DNA from: Candidatus Krumholzibacteriia bacterium
GTDB taxonomy: Bacteria > Krumholzibacteriota > Krumholzibacteriia > WVZY01 > JAKEHA01
Reading direction: 5' to 3'
Length of the DNA stretch: 30,837 bases
NCBI GenBank assembly: GCA_041742575.1
Contig: JBGSIK010000403.1
Location: 1-30,837, forward strand
Each line of letters starts with the position of its first letter. The first letter of the stretch is position 1. The position numbers and the translations under genes were made by a program. Below are positions 428-25,233 of the stretch, piece after piece. The notes beneath the pieces are model-generated. The model was not told the origin of the DNA. It did not search any database and saw only the letters and a list, made by a program, of their open reading frames with translations.

Positions 428-1888
428 TCAACGCCAGGCCGCGACGGCTGTCTCCGGCGCGTCCGAGTCGGACAGGAACTTGTAGATGTCGGCGGCCGAC
501 TTCTTTCCCGCGCCCATCGCCTCGATCACGGTGGCGCTTCCCGTGACGATGTCGCCGCCCGCCCAGACGCGGGGGATAGAAGTCCTTCCGTTCACGTCGG
601 CGACGATGTTGCCCCACTTGTTGAGTTCGAGACCGGGAACCGATTTTGTGAGGAGCGGGTTCGCGTTCCCTCCAATGGCCATGATGACGAGGTCGGAGTC
701 GATCGTGAAGTAAGCGTCTTTCTTCGGAATCGGTCTCCTTCTCCCCGAGGCGTCGGGCTCGCCCAGTTCCATCTCCTGGCACTTGATGCTCTTCACCATG
801 CCCCTCTCGTCGCCCATGATCTCGACGGGACTCGAGAGCAACTTGAAGATGATGCCTTCTTGTTCGGCGTGGTGGATCTCTTCGGCGCGCGCGGGGAGTT
901 CCGTGCGCGACCGGCGGTAGACGATGTACACGTTGTCGGCGCCCAGCCGGAGCGCGGTGCGCGCGGAATCCATGGCGACGTTGCCGCCGCCGATGACGCA
1001 CACGGTCCTGCCCTTTACGATCGGCGTGTCGAAATCGGGGAAGAGGAACGCCTTCATGAGATTGGACCTGGTGAGGTATTCGTTGGCGGAATAAACGCCG
1101 CCGAGTTCCTCGCCCGGAATTCCCATGAAGCTCGGAAGCCCCGCGCCCACACCGATGAATACGGCCGAGTAGCCGTGCTTTTCGAAAAGCTCCTGTATCG
1201 TGATCGACCTGCCGATCACCTGGTTGAAATCGATGGTGACGCCGAGGTTCTCGAGGTACTCGACTTCTTTCTCGACGATCTTCTTCGGCAGACGGAACTC
1301 AGGAATTCCGTACATGAGAACGCCGCCGGGCCTGTGGAACGCTTCGAAGATCGTCACCTCGAAACCCAGCACGACGAGGTCCCCCGCCACGGTTAGCCCC
1401 GCGGGCCCGCAACCGACGACGGCGATCTTCTTCCCTCTGGGCGCTTGTTTCGCAGGGAGCTCGATCAAGTTGTGGTCGCGCTCGTAGTCGGCGGCGAAGC
1501 GTTCGAGACGCCCGATGGCGACCGGCTCGAATTTCTTTGCGAGCGAACACTCCACCTCACACTGGGTCTCCTGCGGGCATACTCTCCCGCAGATCGCGGG
1601 GAGGCAGTTGGTCTCCTTGATCTTCCGTGCCGCTCCGACGTAATCGCCCGCGACGATGAGCTTGATGAAACCGGGAATATCGACGTTCACCGGGCACCCA
1701 TTCATGCAGGAAGGCTTCTTGCACTGGATGCACCTGGCCGCCTCCATCTGCGCCTGCTCCGGCGTGTACCCGAAGGGGACTTCGTCGAAATTGTGCGCGC
1801 GGACCTTCGGGTCCTGCTCCGGCATCGGAGTCTTCTTCGGAATGATCTTTTTCTTTTCAGGCTTCTTCTTCTCTTCGGTGTCGCTCAC
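428..1888 (-). CDS. nfnB: NADH-dependent reduced ferredoxin:NADP+ oxidoreductase large subunit (GltA/SudA-like, GltD superfamily)
   Basis: 4Fe-4S motifs CIQCKKPSCMNGCP and CGRVCPQETQCEVEC, dinucleotide motifs VGCGPAG and IGGGNVAMD, and C-terminal AGGDIVTG. The GTG start overlaps the upstream stop (GTGA at 1885-1888). It is paired with an NfnA-type gene. Confidence 0.9.
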   Translation of the reverse strand: MSDTEEKKKPEKKKIIPKKTPMPEQDPKVRAHNFDEVPFGYTPEQAQMEAARCIQCKKPSCMNGCPVNVDIPGFIKLIVAGDYVGAARKIKETNCLPAICGRVCPQETQCEVECSLAKKFEPVAIGRLERFAADYERDHNLIELPAKQAPRGKKIAVVGCGPAGLTVAGDLVVLGFEVTIFEAFHRPGGVLMYGIPEFRLPKKIVEKEVEYLENLGVTIDFNQVIGRSITIQELFEKHGYSAVFIGVGAGLPSFMGIPGEELGGVYSANEYLTRSNLMKAFLFPDFDTPIVKGRTVCVIGGGNVAMDSARTALRLGADNVYIVYRRSRTELPARAEEIHHAEQEGIIFKLLSSPVEIMGDERGMVKSIKCQEMELGEPDASGRRRPIPKKDAYFTIDSDLVIMAIGGNANPLLTKSVPGLELNKWGNIVADVNGRTSIPRVWAGGDIVTGSATVIEAMGAGKKSAADIYKFLSDSDAPETAVAAWR

Positions 1889-2727
1889 TTGATCCCAGCC
1901 TCCTCGATGTATTTATCCAGCGAGCACTTTTCCTCTTTGATGTAGATCTTCTGGCGCTTCATGAGCGTGTCCCAATCCACGACGTGGGCGTCGAACTCGG
2001 GGCCATCGACGCATGTGAATTGCGTCTTGCCGCCGATGGACACCCGACACCCGCCGCACATCCCCGTTCCATCGACCATGACCGAGTTCAGGCTCGCGAT
2101 GGTGCGCACGCCGAAAGGCTTCGTGGTGAGCGCGCAGAACTTCATCATGATCGCGGGGCCGATCGCGTACACGCAGCCGATTTTCTTATCGCGATCGTTC
2201 TCGAGAATTTCCTTGAGCGGCTCGGTGACGAGGCCCTTCCGGCCGTAAGTCCCGTCATCGGTGGTGATGACGTGCTCGTCGGACACCGAAGCGATTTTCT
2301 CCTCCCAGAAGAGGAGGCTCTTGGACCTCGCGCCGTGTATCGATATGACGCGATTCCCCACCTCATGGAGACGCCGGGCGATGGGGTAGATCGGCGCCGT
2401 TCCCACGCCGCCGGCCACCATAATGACGGTCCCGAAGTTCTCGATATCGGAGGGGTGTCCGAGCGGGCCGACGAGCGCATAGAGGGTCCCCCCCTCGGGG
2501 AGCCGTGTCGTTTTCATGCTCGTGGTGCCGACGACCATAATGACGAGCGTGATCGTCCCCGCCTTGCGATCGAAATCGGCGATGGTGAGGGGGATCCGTT
2601 CTCCCCTCTCTTCGGGCATGGCCAGGACGAAGTGCCCCGGCTCGGCCTTGGCGGCGATGAGCGGGGCCTCGATGACCATTTCGAAAATATCTTTAACGAG
2701 CTCGCGTTTCTTGATGATCCGGCTCAT
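1885..2727 (-). CDS. nfnA: NfnA/SudB small subunit (FNR-like FAD/NAD-binding, 2Fe-2S)
   Basis: Motifs ERIPLTIAD, AGGVGTAP, DGTGMCGGCRV and CVDGPEF. The ATG at 2727 (MSRIIKKREL) fits the family N-terminus better than the GTG at 2766. Confidence 0.9.
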   Translation of the reverse strand: MSRIIKKRELVKDIFEMVIEAPLIAAKAEPGHFVLAMPEERGERIPLTIADFDRKAGTITLVIMVVGTTSMKTTRLPEGGTLYALVGPLGHPSDIENFGTVIMVAGGVGTAPIYPIARRLHEVGNRVISIHGARSKSLLFWEEKIASVSDEHVITTDDGTYGRKGLVTEPLKEILENDRDKKIGCVYAIGPAIMMKFCALTTKPFGVRTIASLNSVMVDGTGMCGGCRVSIGGKTQFTCVDGPEFDAHVVDWDTLMKRQKIYIKEEKCSLDKYIEEAGIK

Positions 2728-2791
2728 GGGCTGCGTTCCTATGCTTTGGATTCGTGTGGGTGACAATCGCGCAGTTCTAACTTAGCGAAGA

Positions 2792-2953: not shown

Positions 2954-3091
2954 TCCGCCCGTCACTAACCCGCCTTCCCTGCTCAAACTCCGATCCACAC
3001 ACCAACCGGAAGACGGCATTCAATCGTTCATATCCTGGTCGCTGCGATCCCCCCCCAGATCAATTCCTAACGGGGAGTAAGTGAGCGAATC

Positions 3092-6000
3092 ATGAATCGG
3101 CGGAACATCGTCCCGTTCATAGGTTTCCTATTATTGGCGGTCATGTTGTGCCCAAGCGCGGGCTCGGCGTATTACCTCAAAATGACATCGCCCCCCGACG
3201 TGGACAAATCGTATCCGAACAACACCTGCTGGCTGGCCACTGCGGCCAACATGCTGGCCGGGGCCGGATACGGCGTCAGCAGCCCGATCACCACGCCGCA
3301 AGGCCGGGCCATGTACATCTACGGCCAGCTCGTGGAGGAATTCGGCCAGATCGAGTGAGGGTACATCGACACAGCCATCAGTTGGTGGCTCAAAAACAGA
3401 AACGATGACTCCGACAACACGTACGACATCGTCCAATTCTACGGCAATCGGCGCCGAGAGCCCTGGCGAGAAGAGTACGGGGCGCAATTCATCAGTAATA
3501 GTCTCCGGCGTTGTCGCTATGCCGGCTTAGGACTCAGCTGGGCCGGTCCGGTCTCCAGCAGCTGCGGGCAGCTGCATGTGGTGACCGCTTGGGGAGACGA
3601 GCAGGGTACTGGTTACCTCTCGGACAATCCGGCCACCTTCAATATCACGGATTCGGACAATGAGCTCATCCTGGGACCTACTCAGCCGAACGTCAGAACC
3701 TATGGCCTGCAGTACAACGGTCCCGCGGGAGAAGGCTGGTACCTCCCCACCTACGACGTCTACCCGACACACCCGTTCATCATGAACGTCGCCTTCCTGG
3801 TCCAGGGGAATTACAGCTTGCCGGCCGATTGCTACGAGGCGGTCAAGGTGGTCGGATCCTACCGGCTCACTCAGGTTGGTTCGACCGCTGCCACCGGGTT
3901 GGACTACAGGGCTGGGACGGACGTCGGGATTTACTGGTATGAAACCCATGCCGGCGTGGAAGGCGACTCCACGGCCACACCAGTGCCTGGTCACGATCCA
4001 CCGTGGGCCTACGACTTTGAATGGACTTTCGATGAACCTGTGCCGCAAGGGACGCAGGTGACGATATTCACCGAGTTTGCCGAGTGCGTCAGGAACGCGA
4101 TCTATTACAGAGATGTTAGTTTCACCTATGACTCGCGCGACCGCGTCCAGGCCCCCGGCGGGGCCGCTGCGCCACGGGACATCACTGTCCCGGCGATACA
4201 GATCACGGTGGACACCGAGGATCTCTCCGATACGGACATCCCCAACATCTGCGGCGGACAAGTGGTCGGAGCCTTCGAATTGTACAGCGATGAAGCCCGC
4301 ACCACCTTGCTGGGTGAATTCAGATTCGAACACGAGTACAACTGGGATCAGGATCCGGAGCACCACTGGTTTACGGTCGCACTGAGGGACAACACACCCT
4401 GTTGGGTCGGGGACGTCCGGTTCGGGCACAGTCATGGTTTCCTCGACCAGGAAGCGCTGTGGGAATTCGAGGAGTGGTTCGAAGTGCATTATGGAACTGC
4501 CGCTCTGACCGCCACGGATTCGATCAGCTATACCTTGAGCTGGGACGGCCGGCTACCCTACCCGCCGATGACTTCGGGGGACGAGCAACAGTTGGATTGC
4601 ATCGACCATACGTGTTGGAGCGTCCAGGATGTGGACCTCTTCCAGGACAACTTCCCAACCAACGGGACTTCGGCGGGGGCGGGTCGGATCGATATGGCCC
4701 GGCTTCTCGGCCTTGCCTCCGGCGCCGTTCTCGGCGACTCGGCCGTGGTCTCTGTTTACGATTCGCTGGGCATTGCCGAGGATAATTCGATAGGTGGGCC
4801 GGCGGTGTACTTCTACCTGCATCGCGCGCCGGCCACCAAACCCGTGAATCCGATCAGCGCAGTGGAGAACGCGTTTCGCTGGCCGATGGTCGATTCGACT
4901 ACTGCGGCCGACGGACGGCTGTGGTATCGATTCCGGATGGACAGCTGTTTCACCGATCCGGCCGGACCGGGCACTCGCACCGGATATGTGCCCGACCGAT
5001 ACTGCATCGATGTCAACGACAACTATTTCGAGAATGGTGACACCTTGTGGTTCGTCTTCGGTTCCCGGAACGTTGGGGATGAATTCACCTGGTGGAGCCA
5101 AAGTGCCGGGGCGGTTTCCACGTTGGACGAAGCCTGCGCAGCGCCGATGGAGATGCAGATCCTGCCCGGAGCCGGTCCCGGTCGCGGCGGCGATATTCTG
5201 TATGTCGACAACTTCGGGAACCGCGCGGCGAGGGCCGACTACGATTGGGCCTTCAAGATGATGGGTTTGGACCAACAGGTCGACCGGTTCGACAAGCGCG
5301 GGGCGTCTCTGGCCGTCGGCAACGGCCTGGGCAACATCTGCGGGAACGCCGAAGGCCAGCTGATCCCCAATTATCGAAAGATCATTTGGGATTCAGGGAA
5401 TCTAAAGCAGGGAACGGTCGGTGACGGCACCGGCGCTCCGGAGTTGTCCGATGATTTCGCACTGCTCAGTCAATTCCTGAATAATCACACCAACTCCTCA
5501 GGCTGCGGCGTATATCTCACCGGAGACAACCTGGCCGAAGAGTGGGCCGGTTTCAGCAGCGCATCTGCCGTCAATTTCCAGGCTACCTATATGCCCCATG
5601 ATCTGATCACCGGCGATCATAAGCCCTTACACGGCGGATCTCCGTTCGTGATCGGAGAAACCGGCGGTATATTCACGAGCGGCAGCCCGATCATGCCGGA
5701 CACGCTGGTCGCCTATCAAGACTGGCGGGCGGCCTCCGGCCCCGCCGATTTCGATCAGGTGAAGCCTAAACCTGGCGCCGTACTGCAGATGACCTACCGA
5801 GGCACGCATAGCTCGACTGACGGAGCGGTGTTGTCTTATTCCACCAGCAACTATAATGGTCCGGTGGGCGTTGTGCTGTCCAGTTTCAGCTATCACGCCA
5901 TCCGCGACGACCGCCCCCAGAATCCCATGGACCGTGTCGAGCATCTGTACCGGATTCTCACCTGGCTGGGAAACGCCATCGATGAGCCGACCGGGAGCGA

Positions 6001-6298
6001 GGCTGCGCTGCCGTTCCGTGACTATTTGGCCCAGAACTTCCCGAATCCCTTCAATCCGTACACTACCATCCGCTATTCGATTCGGGAGCGCTCACACGTG
6101 ACCTTGAGGATATACAACGTGGCGGGCCAACTGGTGCGGACGCTGGTGGATGGCGAACAGTTGCCGCGGGCGGAGGGATTCACGATCAAGTGGGACGGCC
6201 GAAACGAAACCGGAGAAGCGGTCGCGACCGGCGTTTACCTGTACCGGCTGGTAACGAAGCAGTACACACAGACCAGGAAGCTGGTGTTGCTAAAGTGA
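3092..6298 (+). CDS. Secreted multidomain protein with an N-terminal IdeS/Mac (C66)-like cysteine peptidase domain and a C-terminal FlgD-Ig/T9SS-type domain; one in-frame UGA at codon 89 (selenoprotein candidate or pseudogene)
   Basis: Track ORFs 3092..3358 and 3578..6298 share a frame, and TGA 3356-3358 is the only stop between them. Features: signal peptide MNRRNIVPFIGFLLLAVMLCPSAGSA; NNTCWLATAANML (Cys46); LHVVTAWG (His162); ITDSD; C-terminal QNFPNPFNP...WDGRN...GVYLYRL...RKLVLLK. Confidence 0.8.
3373..3390 (+). other. Candidate bacterial SECIS-like stem-loop
   Basis: AGCCATC-AGTT-GGTGGCT forms a 7-bp stem (one G-U) with a 4-nt loop having G at position 2. The loop starts 21 nt after the in-frame UGA. 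Confidence 0.35.
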
Positions 6299-6442: not shown

Positions 6443-8236
6443 TCACTCTCCTCGCCGCGCTGAGATCTCGCGGTCTCCGCGCGAGAGGACGAACTCGATC
6501 ACGCCCCGGGGCGACGGGCCGATGCGGGCTGAAACTGAGACCCCCGTCATCGGGTCCCACGATTCGAGGCGCTCCCCACCCACGGGGAAGAAGCGGCACG
6601 CGGGATCCACGGGTCTCATGATCATTCCCAACAGTCTGTTCTTTCCCGAGCGCTCCCAGGCATAGGTGCGGGTCACGTCTCCGCGCTCGTGGCGAAAACG
6701 AACGGCCGTGAGGAAGTGTACCTCGCCGCTTCCGGTCCCCAGCACTTCGTATCCTTGTAGCGGCCCGAATTGCTCCTCCTGGCCCTTCGTCCGTTCTTCG
6801 TATGCGTTCCGGAGGTTCTCGATCGGGACCTTCCCCTGGTATGCATCAAACAGAGGAGTGAAGTCTCCTTTTGCACACGCGCCCACGATGCGATCGATCT
6901 CACGGCTCATGGTGACGAGCCGCTCGACGTTCTCCGTGGGCGGCGAGTAAATATACGCGTAGGCCGTCCATCCGTGGGGGACCACGCGAAGGGAATTGCG
7001 ATCGACGCTAACAGCGTATCTCTGACCGTTATCGAGTTCGTAGTCTCCGGCCCATTCGACGAGCACGCTCTGGCCGACGTCCACGACCTGGGGAACATGC
7101 GGATAGGGTTTGCCCATGAAAGCGCGTTCCTCGATCTGTGAGAGGAGATTGTTCGCCGTGGGGAAATCGGCTAATACGTTGGTCTGCAGAAACGCGACGA
7201 TATCGCGCGCGGGCACGATGGCGAGGTCGGCGAAGAAGATGCCATTCCCACCGTTGTGCGTGATGATGCGTACGCCGGGAGCGAGATCCACGATCGACCA
7301 GCCGTATCCGTAGAACGACAGGCTGTCGCCGTTGCTCTCATCGACGTAGGGTTTCCAGAGGGCGTCTCGAGTCGCGACGGAGAGCGTCGAGCCTTTGAGG
7401 AGCGTCTCCGCCCAGCGCACCATTTCCTCGGCCGTCGAGTGGATGCCGCCGTTGGCGCGCAAGGCCCAGTAGGGACCGTCCTCCGCCATCGGCCGTTCGA
7501 GGACCGTTCCCCAGCGTTCGCTGCCCGTGTACCCCTGCGCGATCCGCGACTCCTCCCATTTCGGGATCTGGTAGCCGGTTTCCGCGAGTCCCGCGGGATC
7601 GAAGACGAGTTCGCGCATGGCCTGCTCGTAACTTTTTTTCGTCACCAGCTCGATCACCGCGCCGAGGAGACTGAAGTTGGCATTCGCGTACGCGTACCGC
7701 TCGCCGGGGGCGGAGGCGAGCTGCCCCGTGAGGACGGCGCGGACGTACTCCTCGCGTCCGACCGGGTCGAAATCGTCGATGCCTTCGGGGTCCGTGATGC
7801 CGGAAGAGTGCGTGAGCAAGTGGTGGAGCGTGATCGTCTTTTTGTCAGGCGGTGTCTCGGGGAAGTATTTCCCCAGCGGGTCGTCGAAGCGCACGCGCCC
7901 TTGCTCCACGAGTTTCGCGATGCCGGCGGCCGTGAACTGCTTGGTGATGGAGCCGATGTCGGCGATGGTGGTTGGAGTCCAGGGGAGGTTTCGCTCACGA
8001 TCGGCGAGGCCGTGGCCGTCCGCGATCACGGGCTTCCCGCCCTCGGTGATGCACACGACTCCGGCAAATCCGAGCTTCTCCAAGCGCGAGAAATACAACT
8101 TGGTGTCCTGGACGAACGACTCGTCGAGGGTGGCGGCGGAAGCGTTGGAAGAGCAGATCACACCGGGACCGCGCGTCGCAACCGGCAGTACGGCGGCCAA
8201 AACCAGGACAACCGCAACAATTGACCGGGGTTTCAT
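6443..8236 (-). CDS. Exported serine hydrolase, beta-lactamase/PBP-like family (class C/AmpC-like fold), with C-terminal extension
   Basis: SxxK (GSITKQF), LLTHSSG, YxN (YAYANANF) and HNGG motifs, plus a signal peptide. SD AAGGAG precedes ATG 8236. Confidence 0.85.
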   Translation of the reverse strand: MKPRSIVAVVLVLAAVLPVATRGPGVICSSNASAATLDESFVQDTKLYFSRLEKLGFAGVVCITEGGKPVIADGHGLADRERNLPWTPTTIADIGSITKQFTAAGIAKLVEQGRVRFDDPLGKYFPETPPDKKTITLHHLLTHSSGITDPEGIDDFDPVGREEYVRAVLTGQLASAPGERYAYANANFSLLGAVIELVTKKSYEQAMRELVFDPAGLAETGYQIPKWEESRIAQGYTGSERWGTVLERPMAEDGPYWALRANGGIHSTAEEMVRWAETLLKGSTLSVATRDALWKPYVDESNGDSLSFYGYGWSIVDLAPGVRIITHNGGNGIFFADLAIVPARDIVAFLQTNVLADFPTANNLLSQIEERAFMGKPYPHVPQVVDVGQSVLVEWAGDYELDNGQRYAVSVDRNSLRVVPHGWTAYAYIYSPPTENVERLVTMSREIDRIVGACAKGDFTPLFDAYQGKVPIENLRNAYEERTKGQEEQFGPLQGYEVLGTGSGEVHFLTAVRFRHERGDVTRTYAWERSGKNRLLGMIMRPVDPACRFFPVGGERLESWDPMTGVSVSARIGPSPRGVIEFVLSRGDREISARRGE

Positions 8237-12592: not shown

Positions 12593-15376
12593 ATGAGATT
12601 CCGTCCAGCGATCTTGGCGATATGTACGGGCTTCGTCGTTTTCGTTTCGCTCGCGATTCCGGCGGAAACTGCCGCCGGCACGTGGGCGGAGACCTTCAGC
12701 TCGGCGTTTTTCAAGTACCGCGAGAACACCACTGCAGTCTGGGACACCGTGGCGGGCGAGATCCGGCTGCCTCCATTCAGCATGAGCCTGGTGGGGAGTT
12801 GCGCTACACCGGACGACGCGCGGGACGTCGAGGTCAGAGGAAACTTCGCTTATGTCACCGACAATGTTGGTTTGCAGATCATCGATATCGGGGACCCAGC
12901 CCACCCGGTGTTGATGGGTGGTTGTGACACGCCCGGCTACCCCATTGGGATCGCGATCGACGGCCATTACGCGTACGTGGCCGACTACCCCTCGGCTCTC
13001 AAAGTGATCGACGTGAGCGATCCCACCAGCCCGTCGCTCATAGGGAGTTATGCGATCACTGGTTCGGCGTACGATGTTGCGGTCGCGGGCGATTACGCGT
13101 ACGTGGCGGCGGCAACGCAGGCGTTGGTGGTGATCGACGTGAGCGACCCGACCAACCCAACGTACGTCGACGAATTGCCCGGAACGGAAGCATACTTTGT
13201 GGCGATCTCCGGCAACCACGCCTACGTGAGCGATGGCGACAACGGTATGATGGTGGTGGATATCACGGATCCCACCGATATTGTGCAGGTCGGCAGCTGC
13301 GGCACCGGCGGCCCGGCAAGAAAATCCGTCGTGCGCGGCGATTATCTCTACGTGGCGAATTGGACTGCGGGCTTCGCCGTGGTCGACATAACCGAACCGA
13401 CGGCCCCGGCGCTCGTCGGAGCATGCGCGATTCCCGGGATGTGCCGTGCACTGGACGTGACAGGGGATTACGCGTACGTGACAGGCTACCACACCGGGCT
13501 CTCGGTGGTCGACGTGAGGGACCCGGCCAATCCGGTGTTCGGCGACAGCGTGGACACGCCCGGCTATGCGTTCGGAGTCGATGCCGTGGGCGAATACGCG
13601 TTCGTGGCGGATTACGCTGGGGGGCTTCAGGTCGTCCGCATTTCCCATCGCACGCCGACGCCGATTGTCGCCGGGAATGTCCCGGCGGTCGCGGGCTCCT
13701 TCGGCGTGGCGGTGAGCGGAGACTTCGCGTATGTCGGCGAGACAACATCCGGTGTCCGGGTTGTTGACATCAGCGATCCGGAAAACCCGGTGCTCGTGAA
13801 CACCGTCAGCGTCAGCGGCTCCGCGTGGGAGTTCGACATCGAGGGCAACGAGCTTTATCTCGCCGCCGCGACAGGGCATTTCAAGGTCTTCGATATCAGC
13901 AAACCCACCGCTCCGATTCTGGTGGGTGGCTACAACACGATCGGGAACCAGACCAATGACGTCGCGGTCGCCGGCGACTACGCATATCTCGCGGACTACG
14001 ACGCCGGATTGTACGTGTTGGATGTGAGCAATCCCGCCAAGCCCGACTCCGTCGGCCGCTACGACACGCCGAGTATTGCGTGGGGTGTCGCGGTGGCTGG
14101 GGACTACGCGTACGTGGCTAACTCCGGCATCGGGCTGATGATCTTCGACATCCGCGATCCAGCACACCCCGCGCTCGTCGGGACCTACAATACCCCCAGT
14201 TCGGCGAACAAGGTCTGCCTCGACGGCCAACTTGCGTTCGTGGCCGATGGGACCGGCGGCCTCGTCATTGTGGACGTGACCGACCCGGCCGCGCCGGCGC
14301 TGGTCGGGAGCTACGTTACCCCGACCTACGCCATGGGCGTGGCCGTGGTCGGCGACCGAGCATTCGTAGCGACGCACACCGCCGGTCTGTACGTCATTGA
14401 CGTGAGCGACCCGGTAAGCCCGGTTTTGGAATCGTCCTACGACACGCCGGGTGATGCCCGAGCGCTTGACGTGGCCGGAGATCACGTGTTCCTCGGTGAC
14501 AATATGGGCGGGCTCGACGTGTTCCAGGTGTACGAGCGGTCGATGGATCTGTCGAAAAACGTCGCGCAGAGCAAGCGACTGCACATGTCGGGGGTTGTGG
14601 ACCGCATCAGAGTGATCCCGCAGCAGACAGACTCCATCGCGTGGGAAGTGAGCGCGGATGCGGGCGCGACCTGGCAGAGTGTGCCGGACACGCTGTGGAC
14701 CGACCTCATGTCGCCCGGGACGGAACTTTGCTGGCGGGCGACCCTACAGTTCACGACGCTTGGTGCGTATCCGACGTGCGACGAGATTCAATTCGAATTC
14801 ATGGATGACATCGCCTCGACATTTATCGAGAGCTTTGCGGCGGTGGTGCTGGATGTGGGGGTGGAGCTCACGTGGGAGATCACGAGCGATGATGCGGTGA
14901 GCGGGTTCGAGATCTACCGTGGGGTTGTGGCGGGAGATCTGGGCGAGCGGGTGAGTGGGTCGGGGATGATACCCGCAGAGGCGAGAAGCTACGTGGACGA
15001 GACCACCGACGGGCGGACATACGCGTACACGCTGCGTGTGGTGTTGGCGGACGGTTCGGTGGTGGAGTCGCGGACGGTGGAAGTGAGTGCGCCGGTGCGG
15101 ACGCTTGCGCTCCATCAGAACTACCCGAACCCGTTCAATCCGACGACAATGATCTCGTTCGCGCTGCCTGCGGAGAGCATGGTGGAGCTGGCGGTCTACG
15201 ATGTGGAAGGGCGTTTGGTGCGAAGGCTGGTGCGGGGGCCGATGACTGCGGGAGTCAAGGAGGTAACGTGGGACGGTCGCGACGACGGCGGGAATCCCGT
15301 GGGCTCGGGGGTTTATCTGTACCAGTTGAGAGCGGGCACACGCACGCTGGCGAAGAAGATGGTGCTTTTGAAGTAG
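12593..15376 (+). CDS. Secreted LVIVD-repeat beta-propeller protein with a C-terminal FlgD-Ig/T9SS-type domain
   Basis: Signal peptide, then 14 repeats of consensus GLxVIDVSDPxxPxLVGSYDTPGxAxGVAVAGDYAYVAD, then QNYPNPFNP...WDGRDD...GVYLYQL...KKMVLLK. SD GGGAGA precedes the ATG. Confidence 0.92.
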   Translation: MRFRPAILAICTGFVVFVSLAIPAETAAGTWAETFSSAFFKYRENTTAVWDTVAGEIRLPPFSMSLVGSCATPDDARDVEVRGNFAYVTDNVGLQIIDIGDPAHPVLMGGCDTPGYPIGIAIDGHYAYVADYPSALKVIDVSDPTSPSLIGSYAITGSAYDVAVAGDYAYVAAATQALVVIDVSDPTNPTYVDELPGTEAYFVAISGNHAYVSDGDNGMMVVDITDPTDIVQVGSCGTGGPARKSVVRGDYLYVANWTAGFAVVDITEPTAPALVGACAIPGMCRALDVTGDYAYVTGYHTGLSVVDVRDPANPVFGDSVDTPGYAFGVDAVGEYAFVADYAGGLQVVRISHRTPTPIVAGNVPAVAGSFGVAVSGDFAYVGETTSGVRVVDISDPENPVLVNTVSVSGSAWEFDIEGNELYLAAATGHFKVFDISKPTAPILVGGYNTIGNQTNDVAVAGDYAYLADYDAGLYVLDVSNPAKPDSVGRYDTPSIAWGVAVAGDYAYVANSGIGLMIFDIRDPAHPALVGTYNTPSSANKVCLDGQLAFVADGTGGLVIVDVTDPAAPALVGSYVTPTYAMGVAVVGDRAFVATHTAGLYVIDVSDPVSPVLESSYDTPGDARALDVAGDHVFLGDNMGGLDVFQVYERSMDLSKNVAQSKRLHMSGVVDRIRVIPQQTDSIAWEVSADAGATWQSVPDTLWTDLMSPGTELCWRATLQFTTLGAYPTCDEIQFEFMDDIASTFIESFAAVVLDVGVELTWEITSDDAVSGFEIYRGVVAGDLGERVSGSGMIPAEARSYVDETTDGRTYAYTLRVVLADGSVVESRTVEVSAPVRTLALHQNYPNPFNPTTMISFALPAESMVELAVYDVEGRLVRRLVRGPMTAGVKEVTWDGRDDGGNPVGSGVYLYQLRAGTRTLAKKMVLLK

Positions 15377-22242: not shown

Positions 22243-25101
22243 TTACAGTCTGGAGACGGTGATCGCGTAACTTGCCCAGGAAGAAGGGTGGCGGATGCCC
22301 TTCGGGCCCCTGAGTTGTGCCCGGCGGGCTTCGGCGAGCGCGTGGATTTCGTCCATCTTCGCGTTCTTCCAGCCTTTGACGAACGATGTCCCGATCCGGA
22401 GTGCATCCTTGTCTTTGACATCCCAGAACGTGTGGACGACGGCGCCCGCTCCCGCATCGAGGAACGCATCGCCCAGACTCGGAGCAACTCCTCCGGCGGC
22501 AACGTACGGTGCCCCGCTCGAGCATCCCGAGAGCACCACGACACCGCACCGGCGAAGGTCCGCGGCGCGTATGTCGGTGACGTCGAGAACGGCGGCGTCG
22601 GGGGAGGGATCATCGCCCGGTTTCCCGAGGACAATCATCGCGAGATACGGGGGATCGCATACCGTGTGAGCAGCGATGTAGATGTAGGGCGCGTTTTCCC
22701 AGCTTTGCGCGAGGCGTTGTTTCGTTGCTGATTCTCCCGAAAGGAGAATGGCCGAAGAATCGTAGGCGGCGAGGGTTTCACCCTCGGCTTCCGCCCCGCC
22801 GAGCGTGCGAAGCCGGCGGGGCCCGCCGCGAAACCCGGCTGAAGGTTCTCCATTGACGAGAATCAATCCGCGACCTCGGCTCTTGAGGGTGGGGTCACGG
22901 CGGATGTGCCGCACGTATGCCACGTCGCGATGTTCGAGAAGAGGTTCGTACTCTTCGCGGAATCCAACATCGAAGGCCTCGAATGGAATGGTGCCGAGGA
23001 AATTGTCGGTGGTGACGAGCAAGGACGGTGACTCCAAAGGGGACGAGTTCGTGTCGAGGATCTCCGGAGGCAGAAGCGCGCGTGCCAGCGCCCGCAGGTT
23101 CTTACGAAGCCCCTCGTCTGCGGGCGCGTCTGGATCGTCCGGGTAGGATGACATGGCTTTCCGAGTGGAAGTGACGAGTCTACGCACTTCCTCGGTTGAA
23201 GAACTCAACACGTCTTTGCGAACGCCGCTCCGAGTGGCCGTCCACCGCCAGATCTCTTTGTCTCGAACAAGGTACACCGTGTGCACCCGGTCCGGTCGGG
23301 ATAGGCTCTCAAGGGCCTGCCGCCCCAACGATTGGAACCCGTGGACCAGTGTCTCGCTCGAAGGGCTCGCAGCGGTCGGTGTCCGGCCTCGCCGAGCGTG
23401 CGCCGCCCCCAAACCGGTTGTGCCCCGTTCCCTGGCTCCGAAAAGCAAGTAAAGTTCCCGCCAGTAAAACTCGGCGCCGTAACCCGCAATGTCATCGCCC
23501 GCCACGACGTCGTGAACGAGCTGTCGGAGCTCGTCTGCATCGGTCAGCCATAAGTAGCTCCCCACGCTCGCATCGATCGACGCGGCGGTCTCTCGGAGTT
23601 TCGTCAAACCATTCGCCGCGGCCTCGGCAGCTCTCCCGGTGTCCCCTCGCGCGAGTGCCACCATACCGAGAAGCGCGTCGCGCTCGCTGAGTTCGGTTCG
23701 AAGTTCGTTCTCCTCACCCACCGCAAATCGATCGAACTCTGCCAAGGCCTGCTGGGCGACGTCCGACTCCCCGAGCGCGCACGCCGCCTTCGCGGCGACG
23801 ATCGAAAGCTGCGCGGACCAAAGAGGTAGCGATTCCGTCGGCGGTCGGGAGAGCTTCTTGCGGGCTTCCTCCAAGGCGTCACGGGGGCGTCCGTTCGATA
23901 GGAGCCCCTGAGCACGACAGTACGCGTACTCGTCATCTTCCCCGCGGTAAGACGCCGGGAGCTTGAGTTCCGGGAGCCGCCTGTTGACCCTCCGCAGGAT
24001 CTCGTCGGCCCTCGCGGTGTCGCCCGACGCCATCCTGACTTGAGCCTCATAGACGTCTGTACGAAGGATATGGATCTCAGCCATGCCCAGCTCGAGATCC
24101 TCACACTCGCGCTCCAAGCCGCGGACCTGTGTGACGAGGTTTTCGACGATGTCCCAGCAGCCGAGATTGGCGTGGAACTTCATGGTTTCCTTGATGAAGC
24201 GCACCTCGTAGCAGCCGGGATCGTATGCGCGGGCGACGTCGATGGCTCGTTCGAGAAGGCGTCGTTTCACGTCCAAGCGGCCCAGACGGCCGTAATACGC
24301 GCCAAAGAAATCGAGGATACGCGCCGCTTGATATCCCATTCGACCCCGATAGGCGATCTCGAGCGCCTGCTCGTAACAGATCGCCATCGAATCCGGTTGG
24401 CCCCACTTCTCATACTGCGATCCCAGCCGCCCCAGTGTCTCGCAGGCCATCTTGTTTTCCCCGAGCTTGCGGAACTCGGAGCAGGCTGCTATGAGATACT
24501 GTTTCTGTCGCTCGTAATCTCCCAGCCGTTCGTACGCGTCCGACATGTGGAGATTTGCCATCGCGACCCATGCGCTGTCGCCGAGCGAAGCGAAAATTCG
24601 AGCGTATCGCGTGTGCTTTTCGAGCGCCTCTTCCGGAGAAAGGAGGTGATCGGACGGGGCGGCGATGTACGCCCACCGGGACCCCCACAACTCCTCGCGT
24701 CTTTTTTCGGGAAGGTCCCGCAAAAAAGCGATCTCACTCAAGTAGGAATCGTCTTGGTACACAGTTGAAAAAGCCTGCGCGATGCGGTCCGCATATCCTT
24801 CCAGGAGCCGAGCATCGTTCGTTTTACCCTGGATCGAAAGCTCGTGCACTCGCCGGAAGACATGATTGTTCATGCCGTTGAGCGCCTCGAAACCCATCTG
24901 GCGCGCATACAGCGCGAAACTGCTCGAATCGCTCGAGACCAGGTGGCGGACGAATTCGGGGGGTAATCCCTCGAGAAGGCGGCGGGCGTGACGGTCTTTG
25001 TTCGTCGAACAGGAAAGGACGGAAAGAATCACGCAGGCAAGACAGATGGCCACGAGCAATGGCCGAACGAAAAGCTGTTTGCTGGGGATGGGTCTCGTCA
25101 T
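22243..25101 (-). CDS. TPR-CHAT caspase-like (clan CD) protease, probable lipoprotein
   Basis: CHAT motifs LLVTTDNFLGTIPFEAF, YIAAHT (His), VVLSGCSSG (Cys), AFLDAGAGAVVHTFWDVKD and HPSSWASY, preceded by long helical repeats. N-terminal LLVAICLACVILSVLSC resembles a lipoprotein signal. Start is uncertain (25101 or 25170). Confidence 0.85.
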   Translation of the reverse strand: MTRPIPSKQLFVRPLLVAICLACVILSVLSCSTNKDRHARRLLEGLPPEFVRHLVSSDSSSFALYARQMGFEALNGMNNHVFRRVHELSIQGKTNDARLLEGYADRIAQAFSTVYQDDSYLSEIAFLRDLPEKRREELWGSRWAYIAAPSDHLLSPEEALEKHTRYARIFASLGDSAWVAMANLHMSDAYERLGDYERQKQYLIAACSEFRKLGENKMACETLGRLGSQYEKWGQPDSMAICYEQALEIAYRGRMGYQAARILDFFGAYYGRLGRLDVKRRLLERAIDVARAYDPGCYEVRFIKETMKFHANLGCWDIVENLVTQVRGLERECEDLELGMAEIHILRTDVYEAQVRMASGDTARADEILRRVNRRLPELKLPASYRGEDDEYAYCRAQGLLSNGRPRDALEEARKKLSRPPTESLPLWSAQLSIVAAKAACALGESDVAQQALAEFDRFAVGEENELRTELSERDALLGMVALARGDTGRAAEAAANGLTKLRETAASIDASVGSYLWLTDADELRQLVHDVVAGDDIAGYGAEFYWRELYLLFGARERGTTGLGAAHARRGRTPTAASPSSETLVHGFQSLGRQALESLSRPDRVHTVYLVRDKEIWRWTATRSGVRKDVLSSSTEEVRRLVTSTRKAMSSYPDDPDAPADEGLRKNLRALARALLPPEILDTNSSPLESPSLLVTTDNFLGTIPFEAFDVGFREEYEPLLEHRDVAYVRHIRRDPTLKSRGRGLILVNGEPSAGFRGGPRRLRTLGGAEAEGETLAAYDSSAILLSGESATKQRLAQSWENAPYIYIAAHTVCDPPYLAMIVLGKPGDDPSPDAAVLDVTDIRAADLRRCGVVVLSGCSSGAPYVAAGGVAPSLGDAFLDAGAGAVVHTFWDVKDKDALRIGTSFVKGWKNAKMDEIHALAEARRAQLRGPKGIRHPSSWASYAITVSRL

Positions 25102-25194
25102 CTCTTTGATCGCGGGGCGTCGATAGTGGAGCTCTCGAATCGGTGCGACACCGGGATGATGCGTTTGCATTGGCTTTTCGGCACGGTCAGGCGG

Positions 25195-25220
25195 CACGGA
25201 CACGAGGTTAGAATTCCCAG
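25195..25220 (-). promoter_or_regulatory. Bipartite motif copy 1 (putative ECF promoter) upstream of CHAT
   Basis: Minus strand reads CTGGGAATT-N11-TCCGTG. Confidence 0.55.
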
Positions 25221-25233
25221 TGAATTGTTTCAA
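25205..25233 (-). promoter_or_regulatory. sigma70-type promoter for CHAT
   Basis: Minus strand reads TTGAAA-N17-TAACCT. It overlaps motif copy 1. Confidence 0.45.

What the first reader, a model, noticed from the sequence alone, without database searches (positions are those of the whole stretch)
3356..3390. Single in-frame UGA followed by a SECIS-like hairpin in a 1068-codon secreted protease: candidate new selenoprotein
Seen: the ORF track splits one frame at TGA 3356-3358 (FGQIE*GYIDTAISWW). The 73 codons missing from the track are stop-free and carry the predicted catalytic His. The UGA lies between catalytic Cys46 and His162, so both halves are needed. A stem-loop, AGCCATC-AGTT-GGTGGCT, follows with its loop 21 nt after the UGA and G-U in the loop. 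Known: bacterial SECIS elements lie immediately 3' of the UGA, with the apical loop about 16-37 nt away and a G in its first two positions. Inferred: Sec insertion in an exported peptidase family not known to me as selenoproteins. Equally open alternatives: a GGA/TGG/TGC-to-TGA nonsense mutation or a sequencing error, with the hairpin a by-product of the AISWWL codons.
Basis: partly seen in the sequence, partly recalled or inferred. Interest (0 to 1): 0.75.

Follow-up and report, generated by a model that had tools for sequence, protein, structure and literature searches.

The report
Selenocysteine in a secreted cysteine peptidase
The single in-frame UGA in this 1068-codon exported IdeS-like cysteine-peptidase gene is almost certainly read as selenocysteine, making it a member of a selenoprotein family (16 members found here) that I could not find described, and the first with a peptidase fold in the lists I could search.

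Summary
ORF 3092-6298 is one frame with a single internal TGA (3356-3358), followed by a hairpin at 3373-3390 with an AGUU loop.

The first 25 database homologues showed only Gly/Ser/Thr at this codon, which suggested a nonsense mutation. That was an artefact, because gene callers truncate TGA genes. Reading homologous DNA directly found:
- 15 further genes, 35-62% identical, with TGA at exactly this codon and one open frame on both sides.
- 5 homologues with Cys at this codon.

All 16 TGA genes keep the same hairpin: a 6-bp stem and an AGUU loop (AGGU in one), 21 nt after UGA. It meets every criterion of the published bacterial SECIS consensus. The full stem occurs in only 7 of 60 non-TGA homologues.

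Sec machinery tracks the TGA form:
- selD is present in 9 of 9 TGA-form genomes, against 1 of 5 Cys-form genomes.
- tRNA-Sec was found in 4 of 5 TGA-form genomes tested.

The window's own genome is a 75%-complete MAG. It holds a selB fragment and a canonical UxxC ResA/TlpA-like selenoprotein gene whose hairpin has an AGUUG loop.

The domain is a distant IdeS/Mac-1-like papain-fold peptidase. The role of Sec beside the active site is inferred, not shown. No such family appears in the selenoproteome reviews I could search.

The parts
3092..6298 (+). Complete gene: 1068 codons including Sec89, ending in TGA at 6296-6298. It encodes an exported multidomain protein.
   Evidence: tblastn alignments of homologues run through the TGA in a single HSP.
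3092..3169 (+). N-terminal signal peptide, residues 1-26 (MNRRNIVPFIGFLLLAVMLCPSAGSA). The cleavage site is inferred.
   Evidence: Read from the sequence. Homologues have comparable hydrophobic leaders, and many have a lipobox Cys at the position of A26.
3167..4081 (+). IdeS/Mac-1-like papain-fold cysteine peptidase domain (residues 26-330) plus a beta-rich extension.
   Evidence: AF2 model, pLDDT 86. Foldseek top hits are IdeS/Mac-1 (E 1.6e-5), then calpain and staphopain. A PDB profile search hits IdeS at 5.7e-4.
3206..3208 (+). Lys39 codon. It aligns with the K of the DITK motif of IdeS (chain 2au1), which I recall as the oxyanion-hole Lys84.
   Evidence: Invariant in A1 and A2. Aligned to the DITK motif of IdeS.
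3227..3229 (+). Catalytic Cys46 codon (TGC).
   Evidence: Invariant in all homologues. Aligned to the Cys of the DLLCGAATAGNML motif of IdeS, which I recall as catalytic Cys94.
3356..3358 (+). In-frame UGA, codon 89: predicted selenocysteine.
   Evidence: TGA at the same codon in 15 homologues, Cys in 5.
3373..3390 (+). SECIS-type hairpin. Conserved 6-bp core at 3374-3379 / 3384-3389, loop AGUU at 3380-3383, plus a seventh A-U pair in this copy. It overlaps codons A95-I96-S97-W98-W99-L100.
   Evidence: 96 of 96 cells pair across 16 sequences, and RNAalifold predicts only this helix. dG is -8.3 to -11.6 kcal/mol for the 13 computed. It meets the consensus quoted in PMC13188914.
3575..3577 (+). 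Catalytic His162 codon.
   Evidence: Invariant in A2. Aligned to the His of the HVINLWGAD motif of IdeS, which I recall as His262.
3650..3658 (+). Asp187-Ser188-Asp189 (the DSD motif), candidate third member of the catalytic triad.
   Evidence: S and D are invariant and the first D is nearly invariant in A2. Aligned to the VTDSD motif of IdeS.
6038..6286 (+). C-terminal T9SS type A sorting / FlgD Ig-like domain (residues 983-1065).
   Evidence: TIGR04183 scores 32.8 bits against a cut-off of 23. PF13860 scores 32.9 bits against a cut-off of 27.

Best explanation
Codon 89 (UGA 3356-3358) is decoded as selenocysteine. The hairpin 15 nt downstream (6-7 bp stem, AGUU loop, lying within the codons for A-I-S-W-W-L) acts as a bacterial SECIS. 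It recruits SelB carrying Sec-tRNA(Sec) to the ribosome, so translation continues to the real stop at 6296-6298.

The product is a 1068-residue exported protein with three parts: a signal peptide, an IdeS/Mac-1-like Lys-Cys-His-Asp peptidase domain, about 650 residues of unassigned beta-rich domains, and a T9SS-type C-terminal sorting domain.

The gene belongs to a deep-branching Sec-bearing clade of this domain family. The other members found here are mostly in Phycisphaerae and other Planctomycetota MAGs and in metagenomes.

What is shown: the UGA, the intact frame, the conserved UGA/Cys column, the UGA-specific hairpin, the co-occurrence with Sec machinery, and the fold.

What is inferred: that Sec is actually inserted, and what it does. 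Sec89 lies in the loop between the second and third helices of the helical lobe, at the first G of the family's 'GGW-D-A--WW' motif. From memory this looks like papain's 'GCNGG-Y' loop, which lines the S1/S2 cleft opposite the catalytic Cys. My preferred reading (about 35%) is that the selenol forms a reversible selenenylsulfide with Cys46. This would be a redox switch or a protection of the exported nucleophile against irreversible oxidation.
For: (1) Conserved UGA. TGA sits at exactly this codon in 15 other genes: L022, L036, L067, L069, L073, L075, L080; L106, L112; L114, L121, L127; L224-L226. Each has a single stop inside one HSP, and protein identity to the window is similar on both sides of it, e.g. 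L114 at 52% upstream and 73% downstream.

(2) Cys at the same column in 5 homologues (L070, L079, L082, L083, L088).

(3) Tree. The 8 TGA genes then known, plus Cys-form L079, lie on one side of a 96/98 branch. Terminal branches are 0.3-1.1 substitutions per site, so the UGA has been kept through deep divergence.

(4) Hairpin.
- All 16 TGA genes have 6 of 6 pairs (96 of 96 cells). The loop is AGUU in 15 and AGGU in 1.
- Codon 96 is always RYC (Ile/Thr/Ala), which keeps pairing with the fixed Trp codons.
- Ser97 is AGT in all 15 TGA genes that have Ser there. Among non-TGA homologues with SWW it is AGT in 5 of 22. AGT makes up 7% of Ser codons in this genome.
- Among 60 non-TGA, non-Cys homologues, 7 have the full stem, 5 have the AGUU loop and 3 have both. 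Among Cys forms, 0 of 4 do.
- Fisher p is about 1e-10, but related sequences are not independent.
- 11 of the 16 were found with no constraint on the hairpin.

(5) SECIS consensus. The hairpin meets all four published bSECIS criteria: loop 3-9 nt, stem 4-16 bp, G[G|U] within the first loop positions, 16-37 nt spacing, and MFE <= -7.5 (PMC13188914; energies).

(6) Sec machinery.
- selD over cut-off in 9 of 9 TGA-form genomes. In the seven of G041-G047 it carries its own in-frame TGA.
- selD in 1 of 5 Cys-form genomes and 9 of 14 Gly/Ser-form genomes.
- selA in 5 of 7 TGA-form genomes tested.
- tRNA-SeC(TCA) in 4 of 5 tested, including a complete chromosome.
- selB in 2 of 4 TGA-form genomes tested.

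(7) The window's own genome.
- A SelB C-terminal fragment sits at a contig edge (SelB-wing_3, E 1.7e-15).
- A ResA/TlpA-like gene has U in the CxxC position (FWFPT-U-GAC), followed by hairpin GCGUGG-AGUUG-CCACGC.
- 21 of 22 genomes of the same taxonomic family have selD, many with their own TGA.

(8) TGA is otherwise a stop here: 701 of 1256 long frames end in TGA, and this gene itself ends in TGA.

(9) Fold and catalytic residues.
Against: - selA, selD and tRNA-Sec were not found in this assembly. It is only 75% complete, in 557 contigs.
- Most homologues have Gly/Ser/Thr at this column, not Cys, which is unusual for a Sec site.
- No compensatory double change can occur in the stem, because the 3' arm is fixed by two Trp codons. 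The RNA evidence is therefore one-sided covariation plus synonymous-site invariance.
- No Rfam family matches.
- A shallow Gly-form clade (L030-L032) has the same hairpin by codon choice.
- The modelled SelB-hairpin complex gave no usable verdict.
- There is no protein-level or expression evidence.
Confidence: 0.88

Rival explanations
1. Read-through of UGA that does not use Sec. The hairpin would stimulate near-cognate decoding (Trp, Cys, Arg or Gly), or slow termination, so that a standard amino acid is inserted.
For: - Most homologues have Gly at this column, and GGA is one step from TGA.
- Sec insertion itself was not demonstrated.
- selA, selD and selC were not found in this assembly.
Against: - The UGA form was found only in genomes with selD (9 of 9), with tRNA-SeC where tested.
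- Cys forms occur mainly in genomes without selD.
- The loop motif A-G-[U/G]-U and the spacing match the SelB-type consensus.
- The loop resembles that of a canonical UxxC selenoprotein gene in the same genome.
Confidence: 0.05
2. A private nonsense mutation (GGA/TGC/TGG to TGA), so that the gene is a recent pseudogene or makes only an 88-residue stub.
For: - The first 25 protein-database homologues all show Gly/Ser/Thr at the site.
- No orthologue was found in the 40 other genomes searched among the closest relatives.
- The gene caller annotated only the 906-aa downstream ORF (P0002).
Against: - 15 other genes carry the same TGA at the same codon, at 35-62% identity, with intact frames and conserved His/Asp motifs downstream.
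- The closest relative, L114 (62% identical), shares the TGA and the hairpin.
- The remaining 979 codons are stop-free in the window.
Confidence: 0.03
3. UGA terminates on purpose. Two separate polypeptides, an 88-aa N-terminal piece and a piece restarted downstream, would assemble or act independently.
For: Databases hold many N-terminal stubs ending at this point and C-terminal pieces starting at profile positions 81-106. These are gene-caller products.
Against: - The catalytic Cys and Lys lie upstream and the His and Asp downstream.
- The downstream piece would lack a signal peptide.
- No conserved start codon follows the UGA, and the sequence immediately after it is a conserved in-frame motif.
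Confidence: 0.02
4. A sequencing or assembly error, or an alternative genetic code (UGA = Gly or Trp).
For: - The genome is a fragmented MAG at about 9x coverage.
- UGA aligns with Gly, as it would under code 25.
Against: - A Logan assembly of the likely source run gives the same letters.
- Homologues from unrelated samples have the same TGA.
- TGA is the commonest terminator of long frames in this genome and ends this very gene.
Confidence: 0.01

Closest known systems
Bacterial selenoprotein genes with an intragenic SECIS (e.g. fdhF, selD, thiol-disulfide isomerase-like UxxC proteins)
   Same: - In-frame UGA followed at 16-37 nt by a small hairpin whose loop starts N-G-[G/U].
- Cys-containing homologues at the same column.
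- Restricted to genomes with selA/B/C/D.
- A canonical UxxC example with an AGUUG loop sits in the same genome.
   Different: - The host protein is a hydrolase-fold peptidase domain, not an oxidoreductase.
- Sec is not in a CxxC-type redox motif.
- Most homologues have Gly/Ser/Thr rather than Cys at the site.
- The SECIS 3' arm is made of two Trp codons of a conserved protein motif.
IdeS/Mac-1 (MEROPS family C66) and IdeC-type streptococcal immunoglobulin-degrading cysteine peptidases
   Same: - Best structural matches: Foldseek E 1.6e-5 to 1.3e-4, probability 1.00.
- A profile search aligns the K...C..A..NML and H.I..WG.D...VTDSD motifs.
- Both are secreted.
   Different: - Only 12-14% identity, and TM-scores of only 0.37-0.46.
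- No Pfam or NCBIfam peptidase model matches.
- Found in environmental bacteria, fused to large beta-rich regions and a T9SS-type sorting domain.
- No Sec is known in C66 enzymes.
Papain family (C1) 'GCNGG' loop
   Same: From memory only. Papain's N-G-G-Y-x-x-S-A-L-x-L-V segment precedes the third helix of the L domain and lines the S1-S2 cleft. It resembles this family's N-G-G-W-x-D-T-A-L-S-W-W, and the model's helix order matches. Sec89 would correspond to papain Gly65.
   Different: Not tested by superposition here. No sequence-level match to C1 models was obtained. Treat this as a lead.
'Trypsin-like serine protease' selenoprotein candidate from ocean metagenomes
   Same: It is the only protease-type entry I found in a prokaryotic selenoprotein table (PMC9312934).
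   Different: It has a different fold and catalytic type (PF00089). It does not appear in the text of the 2026 review.

Membership tests
Bacterial selenoprotein gene (Sec-UGA plus bSECIS) | In-frame UGA with conserved coding sequence on both sides | tested here: met
   There is one stop in 1068 codons, and homologue alignments cross it in a single HSP.
Bacterial selenoprotein gene (Sec-UGA plus bSECIS) | UGA conserved at the same codon in homologues of other organisms | tested here: met
   15 further genes. They form a clade with deep branches.
Bacterial selenoprotein gene (Sec-UGA plus bSECIS) | Cys-containing homologues at the Sec column | tested here: met
   5 homologues have TGC. Gly/Ser/Thr are commoner, which is atypical.
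Bacterial selenoprotein gene (Sec-UGA plus bSECIS) | bSECIS consensus: loop 3-9 nt, stem 4-16 bp, G in the first two loop positions, 16-37 nt from UGA, MFE <= -7.5 kcal/mol | tested here: met
   Loop AGUU (4 nt), stem 6-7 bp, 21 nt spacing, dG -9.2 in the window and -8.3 to -11.6 across the 13 computed. Criteria are from PMC13188914.
Bacterial selenoprotein gene (Sec-UGA plus bSECIS) | Sec machinery (selA, selB, selC, selD) in the same genome | tested here: inconclusive
   Only a selB C-terminal fragment was found. selA, selD and tRNA-Sec were not found in the 75%-complete MAG. Indirect support: a UxxC selenoprotein gene in the same genome, and selD in 21 of 22 relatives of the same taxonomic family.
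Bacterial selenoprotein gene (Sec-UGA plus bSECIS) | Selenium shown in the protein (75Se labelling or mass spectrometry) | not testable with these tools
   No proteomic data were available.
IdeS/Mac-1-like (C66) papain-fold cysteine peptidase | Papain-like fold closest to IdeS | tested here: met
   Foldseek top five hits are all IdeS, Mac-1 or IdeC (E 1.6e-5 to 1.3e-4). TM-scores are only 0.37-0.46.
IdeS/Mac-1-like (C66) papain-fold cysteine peptidase | Lys (oxyanion hole), Cys, His, Asp in the same order and aligned motifs | tested here: met
   K39, C46, H162 and D189 are invariant in A2. They align to the K/C and H/DSD motifs of IdeS chain 2au1.
IdeS/Mac-1-like (C66) papain-fold cysteine peptidase | Match to a curated family model | tested here: not met
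   No Pfam or NCBIfam peptidase model matched at E <= 1. The protein is therefore filed as IdeS-like, not as a C66 member.
IdeS/Mac-1-like (C66) papain-fold cysteine peptidase | Peptidase activity and substrate | not testable with these tools
   Needs enzymology.
T9SS type A cargo | C-terminal sorting domain over the curated cut-off | tested here: met
   TIGR04183 scores 32.8 bits (cut-off 23). PF18962 scores 24.3 bits, below its cut-off of 27.
T9SS type A cargo | T9SS components in the genome | not tested
   Two other proteins in the window carry the same FlgD_ig-type C-terminus.

The most novel reading that the evidence does not exclude
This would be the first natural selenoprotein family built on a peptidase fold. 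Sec89 would sit on the wall of the substrate cleft next to the catalytic Cys46 of a secreted papain-fold enzyme. There it would form a reversible selenenylsulfide with Cys46, giving an extracellular cysteine peptidase a selenium-based redox switch or protection against over-oxidation. An alternative is a second, selenium-dependent catalytic step.
Probability: 0.3. Interest if true: 0.75.

Novelty: new member of a known kind. Interest (0 to 1): 0.66.

Why it matters
Known prokaryotic selenoproteins are overwhelmingly oxidoreductases, with Sec in a redox motif. A Sec residue kept for a long evolutionary time beside the active site of an exported Cys-His-Asp peptidase would extend selenium use to extracellular hydrolases. 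It would also offer a natural system for asking what a selenol adds to thiol-protease chemistry.

There is a practical point too. Gene callers split every member of this clade into an 88-residue stub and a truncated remainder. The family is therefore mis-annotated in public databases. A protein-level homology search alone gives the wrong answer, namely an apparently invariant Gly that looks like a nonsense mutation.

Finally, the very compact, easily recognised SECIS (GCC-RYC-AGU-UGG-UGG-C) is a clean test case for SelB recognition in Planctomycetota and the window's lineage.

Tried and rejected
- **Protein-database homologues.** All 24 showed Gly/Ser/Thr at codon 89. I first read this as support for a nonsense mutation. 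I rejected that once DNA-level comparison showed that TGA forms are simply missing from protein databases.
- **Orthologues in 40 related genomes.** None found.
- **Rfam, at E up to 10 over 3000-3800.** No SECIS family; only chance hits.
- **selD, selA and tRNA-Sec in the own genome.** Not found. The best tRNA-Sec hit is tRNA-Ser(CGA).
- **FdhA and FlpD as further selenoproteins in the own genome.** None found.
- **Raw reads.** Only Logan contigs were available. Run X2 does not cover the site.
- **Predicted complex of the SelB C-terminal fragment with the hairpin.** The tool returned no verdict, so it is not used as evidence.
- **Taxon of the genome.** A neighbouring gltD-like gene hits many phyla at 60-71%. 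The middle region resembles Krumholzibacteriota and Fidelibacterota clusters at sub-threshold scores. The taxon is unresolved.
- **selD SECIS elements of the TGA-form genomes.** They have GU-containing loops but not the same hairpin, so this is only loosely supportive.
- **Literature.** No peptidase-fold selenoprotein in the reviews, deep-Sep or the BSepDB text.
- **Distance between Sec89 and Cys46.** Model coordinates cannot be read with these tools.
Full report
**1. The observation**

The + strand frame starting at ATG 3092 runs to TGA 6296-6298. It contains exactly one internal stop, TGA 3356-3358, which is codon 89 in the context FGQIE*GYIDTAISWWL. The mechanical ORF list shows the two halves as 3092-3358 (88 aa) and GTG 3578-6298 (906 aa). 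The 73 codons between them are open and end in His162. The hairpin is A3373-C3379 / AGUU 3380-3383 / G3384-U3390, which leaves 21 nt between the UGA and the loop. Folded alone, a 71-nt piece has z = -2.0, which is unremarkable. A Logan assembly of run X1, the likely source sample, at about 9x word depth reproduces the region with no differences. These were contigs, not raw reads.

**2. A false start**

A word-indexed search of 5.8 billion proteins returned 24 homologues covering the N-terminal 330 residues. All of them have Gly, or a few Ser or Thr, at the column of codon 89, within a conserved 'GGW-D-A--WWL' motif. None of the 40 other genomes searched among the closest relatives has an orthologue. 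Taken alone, this pointed to a GGA-to-TGA nonsense change.

**3. DNA-level comparison reverses that reading**

I fetched 72 homologous loci from one-genome-per-species contigs and ran tblastn across the site. The codon aligned with codon 89 was:
- Gly in 40, Ser in 11, Thr in 3, and other residues in a few.
- Cys (TGC) in 5.
- TGA in 7 (L022, L036, L067, L069, L073, L075, L080).

I then found more TGA forms by two routes.
- A DNA pattern that fixed only the UGA and the invariant protein-motif bases, leaving codons 96-97 free, added L106 and L112 from genomes and L114, L121 and L127 from metagenomes. L112 lies on a complete Phycisphaerales chromosome.
- A profile search of 1.84 billion representatives found 496 family clusters. 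Among them were 79-112-residue stubs that end exactly at this point. The DNA behind three new stubs (L224-L226) shows TGA followed by the same motif in frame.

That makes 16 TGA-bearing genes in total, at 35-62% identity to the window. Each has a single stop inside one continuous alignment, and conservation is equal or higher downstream of it. On a maximum-likelihood tree, the 8 TGA genes then known, plus one Cys form (L079), lie on one side of a 96/98-supported branch. Terminal branches are 0.3-1.1 substitutions per site. A nonsense mutation cannot persist through that much divergence with the frame intact.

The protein database missed these genes because gene callers truncate them. The window's own gene appears there as the 906-aa P0002.

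**4. The hairpin is specific to the UGA forms**

- In all 16 TGA genes, the six bases of codons 95-96 (GC[C/U]-RYC) pair with GGUGGC, which comes from Trp98, Trp99 and the first base of codon 100. That is 96 of 96 cells paired.
- RNAalifold predicts this helix and nothing else.
- The 3' arm cannot vary, because Trp has a single codon. The 5' arm does vary, but only among Ile (AUC), Thr (ACC) and Ala (GCC), which are the codons that keep A-U/G-U and C-G/U-G pairs.
- Ser97 is AGU in all 15 TGA genes that have Ser there, giving loop AGUU. The sixteenth has Arg AGG, giving loop AGGU. AGU is 7% of Ser codons in this genome. Among non-TGA homologues with the same SWW peptide it is used in 5 of 22.
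- Of 60 non-TGA, non-Cys homologues, 7 have six pairs, 5 have an AGUU loop and 3 have both. Those three are near-identical sequences of one shallow clade, whose sisters use AGC. Among Cys forms, 0 of 4 do.
- Fisher tests give p of about 1e-10. Relatedness inflates such tests.

The element meets every criterion of the published consensus as quoted in the 2026 review PMC13188914: loop of 3-9 nt, stem of 4-16 bp, a G followed by G or U within the first loop positions, 16-37 nt from the UGA, and MFE <= -7.5 kcal/mol. Here dG is -8.3 to -11.6 for the 13 computed. The invariant AGU, rather than the preferred AGC, is what places G-U in the loop. From established work on E. coli and Moorella SelB, which I recall but did not re-read here, the loop G-U is the SelB contact.

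**5. Sec machinery**

| Feature | TGA-form genomes | Cys-form genomes | Gly/Ser-form genomes |
|---|---|---|---|
| selD over curated cut-off | 9 of 9 | 1 of 5 | 9 of 14 |
| selA | 5 of 7 | 1 of 5 | 9 of 14 |
| tRNA-SeC(TCA) | 4 of 5 tested | not tested | not tested |
| selB | 2 of 4 tested | not tested | not tested |

In the seven TGA-form genomes G041-G047, selD itself carries an in-frame TGA. The tRNA-SeC hits were confirmed by ARAGORN and include the complete chromosome.

The window's genome is a MAG of 3.0 Mb in 557 contigs, 75% complete. It lacks detectable selD, selA and tRNA-Sec. It does have the C-terminal 318 residues of SelB at the edge of contig C331, with SelB-wing_3 at E 1.7e-15 plus the wing_2 and beta-barrel domains. 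Of the 22 genomes in the same taxonomic family, 21 have selD, many with their own TGA.

Most directly, contig C54 of the same genome encodes a 440-residue ResA/TlpA-like thiol-disulfide oxidoreductase. TGA replaces the first Cys of its CxxC motif (FWFPT-U-GAC-RVELP). Ten nucleotides later comes the hairpin GCGUGG-AGUUG-CCACGC. UxxC thiol-disulfide isomerase-like proteins are a recognised selenoprotein family, listed in the table of PMC13188914. So this organism decodes Sec, and it uses an AGUU-type loop elsewhere.

TGA is otherwise the commonest stop in the genome, ending 701 of 1256 long frames, and it ends this gene. That excludes a reassigned code.

**6. What the protein is**

- Pfam and NCBIfam recognise only the C-terminal T9SS type A / FlgD-Ig sorting domain.
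- A 38-sequence alignment (A2) gave an AlphaFold model of residues 26-330 with mean pLDDT 86.
- Foldseek's five best PDB matches are all IdeS, Mac-1 or IdeC (E 1.6e-5 to 1.3e-4). Calpain and staphopain follow.
- A profile search of PDB sequences hits IdeS at E 5.7e-4. It aligns the Lys-Cys segment (DVDK...SCWLATAANML against DITK...LLCGAATAGNML) and the His-Asp segment (HAITAWGD...VTDSD against HVINLWGAD...VTDSD).
- K39, C46, H162 and D189 are invariant in A2.

This confirms an earlier first-reader note on the same window (e1-5285514). Identity to IdeS is only 12-14% and no curated model matches, so I call the domain IdeS-like rather than a C66 member.

Residues 330-985 have no assignment. Their nearest Atlas clusters are hypothetical FlgD_ig/Por_Secre_tail proteins. 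Two other genes in the window carry the same kind of C-terminus, so the protein fits this organism's secretome.

**7. Where Sec sits and what it may do (inference)**

Residue 89 is model residue 64. It lies in the loop between helix 44-59 and helix 67-77, the second and third helices after the helix that starts with the catalytic Cys. In Gly forms the motif is N-G-G-W-x-D-T-A-L-S-W-W. From memory this resembles papain's N-G-G-Y-P-W-S-A-L-Q-L-V, whose two glycines line the S1/S2 cleft opposite Cys25. I could not superpose structures, so this remains a lead.

Three further observations bear on function:
- In Sec forms the following residue is no longer constrained to Gly; it is G, S, E, D or H.
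- Cys forms often carry an extra Cys at position 81, or at 86 where it forms a CxxC pair. Sec forms have no such partner.
- The only Cys invariant in Sec forms is the catalytic C46.

My preferred hypothesis is therefore a reversible Sec89-Cys46 selenenylsulfide that switches or protects the exported nucleophile. A free selenol acting in substrate binding or in a second chemical step is equally untested.

**8. Rivals**

- A private nonsense mutation, a sequencing error and an alternative genetic code are each contradicted by the results above.
- Read-through that does not use Sec remains possible only because selenium incorporation was not measured. The strict co-occurrence with selD and tRNA-Sec, and the SelB-type loop, argue against it.
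- Deliberate termination giving two polypeptides would separate Cys and Lys from His and Asp, and would leave the larger part without a signal peptide.

**9. Novelty**

The recoding mechanism is the standard bacterial one. The family is what is new. The words peptidase, protease and papain do not occur in the 2026 selenoproteome review, including its family table, in the BSepDB paper (111 families) or in the deep-Sep paper. A 2022 review lists only a 'trypsin-like serine protease' candidate. NCBIfam has no model for this domain. I could not read the BSepDB supplementary table, the Haft papers or the groundwater MAG study, so prior description cannot be excluded.

**10. Verdict**

I classify it as a new member of a known kind: a new bacterial selenoprotein family, unusual in being a peptidase fold with Gly as the commonest alternative residue. 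The function of the selenol is open.

Noticed in passing
G000 contig C54:3224-4264 (locus L227:143-1465), TGA at C54:3944: A second selenoprotein gene in the same genome. It is a 440-aa ResA/TlpA-like thiol-disulfide oxidoreductase with U in place of the first Cys of CxxC (FWFPT-U-GAC). Hairpin GCGUGG-AGUUG-CCACGC starts 10 nt after the UGA.
   Followed up: yes
G000 contig C331:2-958 (locus L009): The C-terminal 318 residues of SelB run off the 5' end of the contig. selA, which often lies upstream of selB, would fall in the unassembled gap.
   Followed up: partly
Database proteins P0158, P0160, P0161, P0163, P0164 and P0002: Gene callers split every TGA-form gene into a 79-112-aa N-terminal stub and a truncated C-terminal ORF. 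Protein databases therefore contain no full-length Sec form, and a protein-only alignment misleadingly shows Gly at the site.
   Followed up: yes
Loci L070, L082, L083 (Cys-form homologues): Cys forms carry additional Cys residues at reference position 81, and in two cases at 86, giving C-N-x-C. This suggests a local disulfide that Sec forms lack.
   Followed up: partly
Alignment A2 column 41 (window residue A26); proteins P0117, P0138, P0139, P0157: About half of the Gly-form homologues have a lipobox-like Cys directly before the Y-x-K-M-x-PPPDVDK motif, so they are probably lipoproteins. The window has Ala there.
   Followed up: no
L090 and L106 (contigs WJIX01000177 and WJIX01000285 of one MAG): In this MAG the TGA-form gene is broken between two contigs within a few dozen bases of the TGA and hairpin.
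   Followed up: no
G045 contig C66 (the contig of L073, 66372 bases): selD (7247-8170, with its own TGA) lies on the same contig as the TGA-form peptidase gene, about 42 kb away.
   Followed up: no
window 12593-15376 (+) and 28098-30791 (+): Two more large secreted proteins carry the same FlgD_ig-type C-terminal domain. One is an LVIVD-repeat beta-propeller protein and the other is a NosD-like beta-helix protein.
   Followed up: no
window 22243-25233 (-): A 996-aa TPR plus CHAT (caspase-like) domain protein.
   Followed up: no
window 428-2766 (-): A pair of genes: a gltD-like Fer4_20/Pyr_redox_2 oxidoreductase and a DHODB-type Fe-S/NAD-binding subunit. The oxidoreductase's best hits (70-71%) are in Planctomycetaceae and Thermoguttaceae MAGs, but the gene is widely shared across phyla.
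   Followed up: partly
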